Assembly: GCF_054482525.1 (NCBI RefSeq)
Contig: NZ_CM137006.1
Length of the DNA: 64,000 bases
Direction: 5' to 3' (one strand)
In this document: one piece after another, positions 7,367 to 11,367 of the stretch
Position numbering within the stretch: the first letter of the stretch is position 1
Layout: the number at the start of each line of letters is the position of its first letter
Notes under the pieces: model-generated
The model's input: only the letters and a program-made list of their open reading frames with translations
What the model was told of the DNA's origin: nothing
The model's database searches: none
Translations under genes and position numbers: made by a program

Positions 7367-9475
7367 TCAGGCTACGGTAATCAGCCAGCAGTTGTGGATC
7401 TGGCGGTTACGGGCGAAATCCTGGGAGAGCGTTTTTTGCGTAATTTCTTGTGCTTTCAGTCCCAGTTTTGCCAGGCCGTCGAGATCCATACGGAAGCCAC
7501 GTTTGTTGTTCGAGAACATGATCGTCCCACCTGCACGCAGCAGACGTTTCAGATCTTTCATCAGCGCCAGATGATCGCGCTGAACATCAAACGCATCTTC
7601 CATTCGTTTTGAGTTAGAGAAGGTTGGCGGATCGATAAAGATCAGATCGAACTGTTCATTTGCCTCACGCAGCCACGCCAGGCAATCGGCCTGAATCAGG
7701 CGATGCGCACGCCCGGTTAGGCCATTCAGACGCAGGTTGCGTTCTGCCCACTCCAGATAAGTACGCGACATATCCACGGTGGTGGTGCTGCGTGCACCGC
7801 CTAATCCCGCGTGCACGGTGGCGCTGCCGGTATAAGAGAACAGGTTGAGGAAATCTTTGCCTTTGCTCATCTGACCGAGCATACGACGGGCGATACGGTG
7901 ATCGAGGAACAGACCGGTATCGAGGTAATCCGTCAGGTTCACCCACAAGTGAGCGTTATATTCGGTAACTTCGAGAAACTCGCCCTTCTCGCCCAGTTTC
8001 TGGTACTGATTTTTGCCCTTCTGGCGTTCACGGGTTTTCAGCACCAGTTTGTTTGGCGCAATCCCCAATACCGAAATGGTTGCAGCGATAATATCGAACA
8101 GACGCTGACGCGCTTTGTGCGCATCAATAGTTTTTGGCGGCGCATACTCCTGCACCACCACCCAATCGGCGTAGCGGTCAACTGCAACGTTGTATTCCGG
8201 TAGATCGGCGTCGTACAGGCGGTAGCATTCAATGCCTTCCTGACGCGCCCACTTCTCGAATTTTTTGAGGTTCTTACGCAGACGGTTGGCGTAGTCTTCT
8301 GCCACCATTGCCGGTTTGCTGTCTGGTGTGCTTTCGGCAACGTGGTAATTTTTCTGCACGCAGTCTAATGGACCGTTTTTCGCTTTGTACTGTTTGTCTG
8401 CACGCAACTGCAGGCAACTTAACAGATCCGGCGAGGCACTGAATAAAGAGAGATTCCAGCCACCGAACTGGTTTTTCATGATTCGGCCCAGCAGACTATG
8501 CAGCGCAATCAGCGCCGGTTCGCTGTCCAGACGTTCACCGTATGGCGGGTTGCTCAACACTGTACCGTACGGCCCTTTCGGCAGCGGATTGGTCAGTTGC
8601 GCGACATCTTTCACCTCAAAGGTGATCAGTTCACCAATCCCCGCAAGACGGGCGTTAGTGCGCGCACGTTGAATCACCCGTGCGTCGCTGTCCGAACCGT
8701 AAAAATGAGAGCTATACTCAGCCAGGCCTTTACGGGCGCGAGTTTGCGCTTCCGCTTTCACTTCCTGCCAGATAGCTTCATCATGCTGCGCCCAGCCGCT
8801 AAAGCCCCAACGCCCACGGTGCAAGCCTGGTGCGCGATCGGTCGCCAGCATCGCCGCTTCAATCAGCAACGTACCGGAACCACACATCGGATCGAGCAGC
8901 GGTGTTCCTGGCTGCCAGCCGGATCGCATCACAATCGCGGCTGCCAGGGTTTCTTTGATCGGCGCAATACCAGCACGATCGCGATAGCCACGCAGATGTA
9001 AACCATCACCACTGAGATCAAGGGCGATACTGGCGGTTTCTTTATGCAGCCAGACGTTAACGCGGATATCCGGCGCATCGCGATCAACATTTGGACGCGG
9101 CAGATTTTTCCGCGTGAAAGCATCGACAATCGCGTCTTTCACTTTCATCGCACCGTACTGACTGTTGCGGATGGTGTCATTCAAACCACTGAAGTGGACA
9201 GCGAAGGTCGCGCCAGGATTAAACATCTCTGTCCAGTTGATCGCCTGAACACCGAGATAGAGGTCTAAATCGCTGTAAACCTTACACTCGCCCAGCGGCA
9301 ACATAATACGCGAGGCCAGGCGGCTCCACATCAGGCTCTGGTAAACAAGCCGTGTGTCGCCCTTGAAATGGACCCCACCCTGAACCACCTGGCATTCAAC
9401 GGCCCCCAGGTTTTCCAGTTCAGTTTTTAACAGCTCTTCCAGCCCACGGGCCGTACTGGCAAACAGAGAATTCAT
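7367..9475 (-). CDS. rlmL: Bifunctional 23S rRNA m2G2445/m7G2069 methyltransferase RlmKL
   Basis: ORF track, 702 aa; two SAM-methyltransferase regions; conserved position next to uup. Confidence 0.95.
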
Positions 9476-9718
9476 ATCGTCACTTTTACTCTAAGAGCCT
9501 ACCGCAGTAGGCGTAATTGTTGCAGTCAGTCTGGACATGGACAGCGCGGAGAAACCGGAGCGTACACAAGTACGTGAGGATTTCGAGCACTTCCCTGGGC
9601 CAAACTGACAAATAAAATAGCCTAATGGGACAGGCGCTAAGAAAATTGTTGCGCATTATAGCTAATAAGCGCGTCATGTCATAAAGTTGAGGGCTTATTT
9701 TCATTTGAGGACCGCACC

Positions 9719-10828
9719 GTGGCGACATTAACCCGGCTTTTTATTCATCCTGTTAAATCGATGCGCGGCATTGGTCTTACACATGCTCTGGCAGATGTCA
9801 GTGGTCTGGCCTTCGATCGCATCTTTATGATCACGGAACCTGACGGTACGTTTATTACCGCTCGCCAGTTTCCGCAAATGGTACGGTTTACTCCTTCACC
9901 TGTGCATGATGGCTTGCATCTCACCGCACCAGATGGCAGTAGCGCATATGTTCGTTTTGCTGATTTCGCCACACAAGACGCACCAACCGAAGTTTGGGGC
10001 ACACATTTTACCGCGCGAATTGCGCCAGACGCGATCAACAAATGGCTAAGTGGATATTTCTCCCGCGAAGTGCAGTTGCGCTGGGTGGGGCCACAAATGA
10101 CGCGGCGCGTGAAACGCCACAACACTGTACCCCTGTCATTTGCTGATGGCTATCCTTACCTTCTTGCTAACGAAGCCTCGTTACGTGATCTCCAACAACG
10201 TTGTCCGGCCAGTGTAAAAATGGAGCAATTCCGCCCTAATCTGGTGGTTTCCGGCGCGTCAGCCTGGGAAGAAGATAGCTGGAAAGTGATTCGTATTGGT
10301 GATGTGGTGTTTGATGTGGTTAAACCTTGTAGCCGCTGTATTTTCACCACCGTCAGCCCAGAAAAAGGGCAAAAACATCCGGCAGGCGAACCATTAAAAA
10401 CATTGCAATCTTTCCGCACTGCCCAGGATAACGGCGATGTCGATTTTGGCCAGAATTTAATTGCCCGTAATAGCGGCGTAATTCGCGTTGGCGATGAGGT
10501 GGAAATTCTGGCAACGGCTCCGGCTAAAATTTACGGCGCAGCCGCCGCTGATGATACCGTCAACATCACGCAACAACCGGACGCAAATGTAGATATTGAC
10601 TGGCAGGGACAGGCATTTCGTGGAAATAACCAGCAGGTGTTGCTGGAGCAATTAGAAAATCAGGGAATTCGTATCCCTTATTCTTGCCGCGCGGGCATTT
10701 GTGGAAGTTGCCGTGTTCAGCTTTTAGAAGGCGAAGTCACGCCGCTGAAAAAATCAGCAATGGGCGATGATGGCACCATTCTTTGCTGTAGCTGTGTACC
10801 GAAGACTGCGCTTAAGCTGACGCGTTAG
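9719..10828 (+). CDS. ycbX: MOSC-domain protein with C-terminal 2Fe-2S ferredoxin domain, YcbX
   Basis: ORF track, 369 aa, GTG start; C-terminal CRAGICGSC motif typical of plant-type ferredoxin. Confidence 0.9.
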
Positions 10829-11367
10829 ACTGCCTGTTCGAGGCTGAAGCTGTCAACATTAACCTGCGGTTTCAGCCTGTCGTTCATGATTTTGATGGCG
10901 TCGCCCAGCTGCATCGCGCGACCCGCAATAACAACGCAGGGTTGTGCCAGTAGGCATAGTGCGGCATTTTCGCCAGATTCAACGACCAGCAAATTGACTT
11001 GCTCGTGAGTGTCGCTCAACCAAACGCAGGCCGCATCGCCCGGCATGGGCACCCACATTTCACCATGGGAAACAAAATGCCAGCTTTTCGGCATTTGCGG
11101 TTTGAGATAACGAATTGCTACCAGCGCATTAAGCACCAGTTCGGCTTTTTGTTCTTTAGATAAATTAAAATCGCGGCATTTTTCTTCAAATGAGAAATAG
11201 AGCGCGGCGTCATCAACGCAAAAGCCTGCGGGAGAAAAGGCATCTGGAGTCAACATTTTGCGCGCAAAACGTGAGCGAAATAGCATACCATTGGCTAAAT
11301 CGAGCATCATTCGATCGTGCTCTTCATCGTAATACCAACGCCAGTTATCGTCTGGTTTAATTCGCAT
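10825..11367 (-). CDS. zapC: Cell-division protein ZapC (180 aa)
   Basis: ORF-track 10825..11403 trimmed to the conserved start [19 protein letters not shown]; 4-nt convergent overlap with ycbX. Confidence 0.85.

What the first reader, a model, noticed from the sequence alone, without database searches (positions are those of the whole stretch)
9719..10828. ycbX: MOSC domain fused to a plant-type 2Fe-2S ferredoxin, initiated at GTG
The C-terminal 80 residues carry a CxxxxCxxC motif ([11 protein letters not shown]) characteristic of 2Fe-2S ferredoxins, fused to a MOSC-like domain; in K-12 YcbX is linked to detoxification of N-hydroxylated base analogues. The only in-frame start at the N-terminus is GTG at 9719. 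The gene's 3' end overlaps convergent zapC by 4 nt.
Basis: partly seen in the sequence, partly recalled or inferred. Interest (0 to 1): 0.25.

Follow-up and report, generated by a model that had tools for sequence, protein, structure and literature searches.

The report
Known E. coli gene ycbX, correctly read
This is the ordinary, well-studied E. coli gene ycbX, a molybdenum enzyme with a built-in iron-sulfur ferredoxin domain that detoxifies N-hydroxylated base analogues.

Summary
Every part of the observation checks out, and none of it is new.

- **Gene identity.** Window 9719..10828 (+) is a 369-codon ORF. Its DNA is 100% identical to the RefSeq-annotated ycbX of E. coli PCN033. It has the same length and the same GTG start as K-12 b0947, with 5 amino-acid differences.
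- **Domains.** Pfam gives MOSC_N (residues 1-116), MOSC (139-262) and Fer2 (294-362). The closest solved structure is human mARC1 (E=1e-32). The C-terminal domain matches plant-type [2Fe-2S] ferredoxins, and C323, C328, C331 and C357 align with their Cys positions.
- **Start codon.** GTG 9719 is the only ATG/GTG/TTG between the upstream in-frame stop (TAG 9659) and Met15. It has a GAGGA Shine-Dalgarno 7 nt upstream. K. aerogenes has ATG at the same position. 111 of 137 diverse homologues start within 3 residues of it. An ATG15 start would delete the conserved YP(V/I/L)KS motif.
- **Overlap.** The 4-nt convergent stop overlap with zapC is real and is conserved in Salmonella, Klebsiella and Kosakonia.
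- **Literature.** Published work already covers HAP reduction, the Mo-MPT cofactor and CysJ as electron donor.
- **Side observation.** A 146-bp hairpin repeat element lies in the rlmKL-ycbX spacer. It is present in about 77% of complete E. coli genomes and absent in about 23%.

The parts
9719..10828 (+). ycbX coding sequence: 369 codons plus the TAG stop, GTG start
   Evidence: ORF list. It matches RefSeq ycbX in PCN033 and K-12 b0947.
9707..9711 (+). Shine-Dalgarno GAGGA, 7 nt before the GTG
   Evidence: Read from the sequence. Anti-SD duplex is -5.9 kcal/mol, in the top 5.5% of window positions. It is conserved as GAGGG in Salmonella.
9719..10066 (+). MOSC_N beta-barrel domain, residues 1-116, including the conserved motif at residues 9-14 (IHPVKS here)
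   Evidence: Pfam PF03476, E=6.4e-34, profile positions 1-118 of 119. Motif conservation is P 132/137, K 130/137, S 125/137.
10133..10504 (+). MOSC domain, residues 139-262, with the PCSRC motif (C204, C207) that holds the molybdenum-ligand cysteine
   Evidence: Pfam PF03473, E=3.7e-23. The motif aligns to the mARC1 CSRC motif. C204 is conserved in 131/137 and C207 in 132/137 homologues.
10598..10804 (+). Plant-type [2Fe-2S] ferredoxin domain, residues 294-362. The aligned cysteines are C323, C328, C331 and C357.
   Evidence: Pfam PF00111, E=2.2e-15. Residue-level alignment to ferredoxins 1roe and 1iue.
10825..10828 (.). 4-nt overlap of the convergent stop codons: ycbX TAG and zapC TAA
   Evidence: The same 4-nt overlap occurs in Salmonella, K. 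aerogenes and Kosakonia.
10825..11367 (-). zapC, 180 aa, the convergent neighbour
   Evidence: Pfam ZapC_N and ZapC_C. RefSeq annotation.

Best explanation
The region is the E. coli gene ycbX, translated from GTG 9719 into a 369-aa cytoplasmic molybdoenzyme. The N-terminal MOSC_N and MOSC module binds the Mo-molybdopterin cofactor through a conserved cysteine in the PCSRC motif. I infer this cysteine to be C207, the counterpart of mARC1 Cys273. The module catalyses two-electron reduction of N-hydroxylated compounds, for example 6-N-hydroxylaminopurine to adenine. The fused C-terminal plant-type [2Fe-2S] ferredoxin domain (C323, C328, C331, C357) relays electrons to the Mo centre one at a time. 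These electrons come from NADPH by way of the flavoprotein CysJ, so the domain does the job that cytochrome b5 does for eukaryotic mARC. What is shown here: gene identity, domain architecture, cysteine alignment and start codon. What is taken from the literature: catalysis, the cofactor and the CysJ partnership.
For: The DNA is 100% identical to annotated ycbX. K-12 b0947 has the same length and GTG start and differs at 5 of 369 residues. Pfam finds MOSC_N, MOSC and Fer2. Human mARC1 structures match at E=1e-32, with the CSRC motif aligned. Plant-type ferredoxins match at E=2e-10, with all four cluster cysteines aligned. The PCxRC and YPxKS motifs are more than 94% conserved in 137 homologues. 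The start is supported by the SD sequence, by the K. aerogenes ATG at the same site and by homologue N-termini. For function, the papers read here cite Kozmin 2008 and 2010. The review PMC10637980 additionally describes YcbX as carrying a spinach-type ferredoxin domain, requiring CysJ, and having a SUOX-like Mo site by EXAFS.
Against: Nothing found here contradicts it. No experimental N-terminus or translation-initiation mapping could be consulted. No NCBIfam model reaches its cut-off; only partial ferredoxin-domain hits appear, so the RefSeq name presumably comes from another type of annotation evidence. The review itself says the physiological substrate is uncertain. The assignment of C207 rather than C204 as the Mo ligand rests on my own residue count for mARC1 and not on a tool result.
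Confidence: 0.97

Rival explanations
1. Translation really starts at the first in-frame ATG (codon 15, 9761) and gives a 355-aa protein. The GTG would be an annotation convention.
For: ATG is the commoner start codon. No experimental N-terminus was available.
Against: This start would delete residues 1-14, including the motif at 9-14 that is conserved in 125-132 of 137 homologues and aligns to mARC1 from residue 2. Pfam MOSC_N matches from profile position 1 at residue 1. There is no SD before 9761 (+1.5 kcal/mol against -5.9 for the GTG). K. aerogenes has ATG at the GTG position.
Confidence: 0.02
2. The protein is longer at the N-terminus, like the 379-380-aa Citrobacter and other annotations that begin about 11 codons upstream.
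For: Many Citrobacter entries are annotated at 379 aa (MKAYFRSRGCTV-VTLTR...).
Against: In this window there is no ATG, GTG or TTG in frame between the stop at 9659 and 9719. The extension is not conserved at the protein level. The same Citrobacter gene is also called at 368 aa in a cluster of 1010 sequences. The upstream DNA is conserved as promoter and UTR sequence shared with rlmKL.
Confidence: 0.01
3. The architecture is as described, but HAP detoxification is incidental. The physiological role would be reduction of some other N-oxygenated metabolite, such as hydroxylamine or an N-hydroxylated intermediate.
For: The review notes that whether HAP-type compounds occur physiologically has been questioned, and that all MOSC proteins tested show generic N-reductive activity. 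YcbX-dependent detoxification also covers hydroxylamine and N4-hydroxycytidine.
Against: The only phenotype reported in the papers read here is base-analogue and hydroxylamine sensitivity. Nothing in the sequence or its neighbourhood (rlmKL, zapC, pyrD) points to another pathway.
Confidence: 0.3

Closest known systems
E. coli K-12 YcbX (b0947), 6-N-hydroxylaminopurine resistance protein
   Same: Same locus (rlmKL - ycbX - zapC - pyrD), same 369-aa length, same GTG start, 364 of 369 identical residues and 1090 of 1110 identical bases.
   Different: Five substitutions (I5T, F113Y, R187S, A281V, A368T), none at a conserved motif or a cysteine. T5 and S187 also occur in the main E. coli cluster representative.
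Human mARC1 (PDB 6fw2, 7p41), mitochondrial amidoxime reducing component
   Same: Same MOSC_N and MOSC fold family, E=1e-32, with the CSRC motif and the N-terminal (Y/H)PVKS motif aligned. The published chemistry is the same N-reduction.
   Different: mARC has an N-terminal membrane anchor and no ferredoxin domain. Its electrons come from separate cytochrome b5 and b5 reductase proteins.
Plant-type [2Fe-2S] ferredoxins (for example 1roe, 1iue, 1czp)
   Same: The CX4CX2C...C cysteine pattern and the surrounding fold sequence align.
   Different: Here it is a fused C-terminal domain and not a free ferredoxin. It is shorter between the third and fourth cysteine by a 4-residue gap in the alignment. 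It scores below the TIGR02008 fdx_plant cut-off (42.6 against 81 bits).
Long YcbX-like proteins of about 600-650 aa (the review reports this form in Vibrionales)
   Same: Same N-terminal MOSC_N and MOSC module and a C-terminal CX4CX2C motif. 26 of the top 150 representatives are of this type.
   Different: They carry an extra FAD/NAD(P)H-binding domain between MOSC and Fer2 and so form a self-contained electron chain. E. coli YcbX relies on CysJ.

Membership tests
YcbX (E. coli b0947 orthologue) | Near-identity and the same length as K-12 YcbX | tested here: met
   364 of 369 residues identical and the same GTG start. RefSeq names the identical sequence ycbX.
YcbX (E. coli b0947 orthologue) | Conserved genomic position between rlmKL (divergent) and zapC (convergent) | tested here: met
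   The same order is found in Salmonella, K. aerogenes and Kosakonia.
YcbX (E. coli b0947 orthologue) | Confers resistance to 6-N-hydroxylaminopurine and reduces HAP to adenine | not testable with these tools
   Known only from the literature for K-12 (Kozmin 2008, as cited).
MOSC-domain molybdoenzymes (YcbX/mARC subgroup) | MOSC_N beta-barrel followed by a MOSC domain | tested here: met
   PF03476 at 116.8 bits (cut-off 25) and PF03473 at 82.3 bits (cut-off 22.7).
MOSC-domain molybdoenzymes (YcbX/mARC subgroup) | Universally conserved MOSC cysteine (mARC1 Cys273) that ligates Mo | tested here: met
   The PCSRC motif aligns to mARC1 ACSRC. C204 is conserved in 131/137 and C207 in 132/137 homologues. 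Which of the two equals Cys273 is inferred to be C207 from my own count, not from a tool.
MOSC-domain molybdoenzymes (YcbX/mARC subgroup) | Binds the Mo-molybdopterin cofactor | not testable with these tools
   EXAFS on E. coli YcbX is reported in the literature.
Plant-type [2Fe-2S] ferredoxin domain (Pfam Fer2) | Fer2 profile match above the gathering score | tested here: met
   PF00111 at 56.8 bits against a cut-off of 21.
Plant-type [2Fe-2S] ferredoxin domain (Pfam Fer2) | Four cluster-ligand cysteines in the pattern CX4CX2C...C, aligned with those of solved ferredoxins | tested here: met
   C323, C328, C331 and C357 align to the four conserved Cys of 1roe and 1iue. That these Cys are the cluster ligands is established knowledge, not a result from these tools.
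Free plant/cyanobacterial ferredoxin (TIGR02008 fdx_plant) | Full-length match above the NCBIfam cut-off | tested here: not met
   42.6 bits against a cut-off of 81.15. It is a ferredoxin-type domain and not a member of the free-ferredoxin subfamily.

The most novel reading that the evidence does not exclude
The conserved 4-nt convergent overlap of ycbX and zapC has no room for an intergenic terminator. It could therefore act as an excludon, with transcription of one gene reducing expression of the other. This would link expression of the cell-division factor ZapC to that of the detoxifying reductase. Separately, the polymorphic 146-bp hairpin element in the presumed rlmKL 5' UTR, next to the ycbX promoter region, could make expression of rlmKL or ycbX differ between E. 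coli lineages.
Probability: 0.1. Interest if true: 0.3.

Novelty: already known. Interest (0 to 1): 0.05.

Why it matters
It matters little beyond confirming correct annotation. YcbX is a characterised enzyme, the bacterial counterpart of human mARC, and its ferredoxin fusion, GTG start and position next to zapC are all in the reference annotation and the literature. The check does show that the first-stage reader can identify a gene, its domains and its start codon from raw sequence. The polymorphic repeat element upstream is a minor item for population genomics.

Tried and rejected
- **NCBIfam scan.** It gave no family-level hit above cut-off, only partial ferredoxin-domain matches such as YfaE and fdx_plant. 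It was not informative for naming the protein.
- **Primary papers.** I tried to read Kozmin 2008 (PMC2740630), Kozmin 2010 (PMC2849459) and Yang 2023 (PMC10544827). None is held, so functional statements rest on papers that cite them.
- **ycbX promoter.** The consensus scan found no sigma-70-like site on the + strand. The only strong site is on the minus strand and would serve rlmKL. A sigma-S in vitro study lists the intergenic region and ycbX as weakly sigma-S-preferring. I did not assign a promoter.
- **Repeats inside the window.** I looked for exact 16-mers shared between 9400-11000 and the rest of the window and found none. The extra places seen come from copies of the intergenic element elsewhere in the genome.
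- **Naming the repeat element.** A literature search for RSA / IRU / box C returned nothing. The name remains a recollection and not a result.
- **Structure prediction.** I considered it and skipped it. Sequence matches to solved structures were already decisive, and the tool returns no coordinates for measuring the distance between cofactor sites.

Full report
**Observation.** The mechanical ORF list gives a 369-codon ORF at 9719..10828 on the + strand, starting with GTG. The raw sequence shows the stop TAG at 10826-10828. The convergent zapC reading frame ends with TAA, the reverse complement of 10825-10827. The motif [11 protein letters not shown] sits at residues 323-333. Upstream, the frame is closed by TAG at 9659-9661. 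Between that stop and the first in-frame ATG (codon 15, 9761), the only ATG/GTG/TTG is GTG 9719.

**Identity.** A megablast of 9400-11000 against 5,426 complete E. coli genomes matched 5,425 of them. It was 100% identical to strain PCN033 and others, and the features under the match are annotated ycbX, zapC and rlmKL. In PCN033 the RefSeq ycbX CDS maps exactly to window 9719-10828 and zapC to 10825-11367. K-12 MG1655 b0947 has the same length and the same GTG start. It differs at 20 of 1110 bases and at 5 of 369 residues: I5T, F113Y, R187S, A281V and A368T.

**Domains.** Pfam gives three domains, all far above their gathering scores:
- MOSC_N, residues 1-116, E=6.4e-34, covering profile positions 1-118 of 119
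- MOSC, residues 139-262, E=3.7e-23
- Fer2, residues 294-362, E=2.2e-15

Against the PDB, the best matches are human mARC1 structures (6fw2, 7p41; E about 1e-32). The alignment starts at residue 2 and places PCSRC opposite mARC1 ACSRC. The C-terminal 90 residues alone match cyanobacterial and plant ferredoxins at E=2e-10. C323, C328, C331 and C357 lie opposite the four conserved Cys of those ferredoxins, which established knowledge identifies as the [2Fe-2S] ligands. NCBIfam returned only sub-threshold ferredoxin-domain hits. The domain is therefore ferredoxin-type but not a member of the free plant-ferredoxin subfamily.

**Start codon.** Five lines of evidence support GTG 9719.
1. A GAGGA Shine-Dalgarno lies at 9707-9711, 7 nt upstream. 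Its anti-SD duplex energy is -5.9 kcal/mol, in the top 5.5% of positions in the window. The values before the internal ATGs at codons 15, 37 and 54 are +1.5, -1.5 and +0.9.
2. Orthologous loci were fetched from Salmonella, Klebsiella aerogenes and Kosakonia. The homologous codon is GTG, ATG and GTG respectively, with the upstream leader conserved.
3. In an alignment of 137 near-full-length representatives from a search of 1.84 billion cluster representatives, 111 begin within 3 residues of the query's Met1.
4. Residues 10-14 form the most conserved N-terminal motif of the family. Tyr is the commonest residue at position 10 (111/137), where E. coli has His. Pro 11 is conserved in 132, Lys 13 in 130 and Ser 14 in 125 of 137. 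An ATG15 start would delete this motif.
5. The 379-380-aa annotations in some Citrobacter and metagenome entries use an upstream start that has no counterpart here. The same Citrobacter gene is also called at 368 aa in a cluster of 1010 sequences.

**Mechanism.** This part comes from the literature and is not shown here. YcbX and YiiM were found as the two Moco-dependent activities that protect E. coli from 6-N-hydroxylaminopurine and related N-hydroxylated compounds by reducing them. CysJ is the specific electron donor for YcbX (PMC3831636). The 2023 JBC review describes YcbX as the bacterial counterpart of mARC. It reports a spinach-type [2Fe-2S] ferredoxin domain fused to the C-terminus, likely doing the job of cytochrome b5, and a SUOX-like Mo site with one cysteine ligand by EXAFS. 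It also describes longer Vibrionales forms that add an FAD/NAD(P)H domain (PMC10637980).

My search reproduces those architecture classes among the top 150 representatives:
- 83 are 255-299 aa with MOSC_N and MOSC only.
- 20 are 300-459 aa and carry CX4CX2C.
- 26 are at least 460 aa and carry CX4CX2C.

The electron path NADPH to CysJ flavins, then to [2Fe-2S], then to Mo-MPT, then to the N-OH substrate is therefore the established model. The only step I add is the inference that C207, and not C204, corresponds to mARC1 Cys273. That rests on my own residue count.

**Context.** The 4-nt stop-codon overlap with zapC is conserved in the three other genera examined. The zapC-ycbX pair is listed among convergent excludon candidates in E. 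coli RNA-seq data (PMC12288877). An in vitro transcription study lists the ycbX intergenic region and ycbX as modestly sigma-S-preferring, with weak rpoS dependence in vivo (PMC3141248). No + strand sigma-70 consensus promoter was found by the simple scan.

**Side observation.** The rlmKL-ycbX spacer is 243 bp here, but 97 bp in an E. coli strain with an empty site and about 98 bp in Salmonella, K. aerogenes and Kosakonia.
- **Boundaries.** The difference is a 146-bp insertion at 9497-9642. It consists of a 140-bp element plus a second copy of CTAAGA; the empty site has one copy.
- **Distribution at this locus.** About 4190 of 5425 complete E. coli genomes have the filled site and about 1230 have the empty one.
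- **Copies elsewhere.** The element family has a median of 5 and a maximum of 8 places per genome by blastn, and 6 in K-12. Copies 85-89% identical lie between the pheM leader and pheS and between qseE and qseG.
- **Structure and position.** As RNA the element folds into one long imperfect hairpin of -59.5 kcal/mol, z=-4.0. It lies just downstream of the only strong promoter-like site in the region, ATGACA-16-TATAAT on the minus strand at 9682..9655. That places it in the presumed rlmKL 5' UTR.
- **Possible name.** From memory only, its size and copy number fit the 'RSA' repeat listed for K-12, and its centre resembles ERIC/IRU. A literature search did not confirm either.

**Verdict.** The finding is correct and already known. 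Interest is very low. It is a useful positive control for the first-stage reader and not a discovery.

Noticed in passing
window 9497-9642 (flanking CTAAGA copies at 9491-9496 and 9637-9642): A 146-bp insertion in the rlmKL-ycbX spacer: a 140-bp imperfect-palindrome element plus a duplicated CTAAGA. It is absent from Salmonella, K. aerogenes and Kosakonia and from about 23% of complete E. coli genomes, where the empty site is intact. The family has a median of 5 places per genome, with copies between pheM and pheS and between qseE and qseG. As RNA it folds into a long hairpin (z=-4.0). It looks like a small MITE-type repeat, possibly the 'RSA' or an ERIC-like family, but the name is unverified.
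   Followed up: partly
window 9655-9682, minus strand: A near-consensus sigma-70 promoter (ATGACA, 16 nt, TATAAT; 11 of 12 matches) points toward rlmKL. It is conserved in Salmonella. The repeat element lies between it and the rlmKL start codon, so it would be in the rlmKL 5' UTR.
   Followed up: partly
window 10825-10828 and flanks: The convergent ycbX and zapC stop codons overlap by 4 nt in E. coli, Salmonella, K. aerogenes and Kosakonia, leaving no intergenic space for terminators. The pair is listed as a convergent excludon candidate in a published RNA-seq survey.
   Followed up: partly
proteins P0004, P0096 and similar (Citrobacter and others), compared with window 9662-9718: Many Citrobacter YcbX entries are annotated 11 residues longer (379 aa, MKAYFRSRGCTV...), while the same gene is called at 368 aa elsewhere. 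The extension is unconserved and falls in what is leader DNA in E. coli. It is probably an over-extended start call in those records.
   Followed up: partly
window 9486-9728, minus strand: An 80-aa ATG ORF runs across the intergenic repeat element and the ycbX start. It lies mostly inside the polymorphic insertion and is unannotated in RefSeq, so it is almost certainly spurious.
   Followed up: no
proteins P0001, P0052, P0074 (E. coli YcbX variants in public data): Single-member database entries carry internal duplications (419 aa) or internal deletions (335 and 328 aa) of YcbX. They are likely assembly artefacts or rare disrupted alleles.
   Followed up: no
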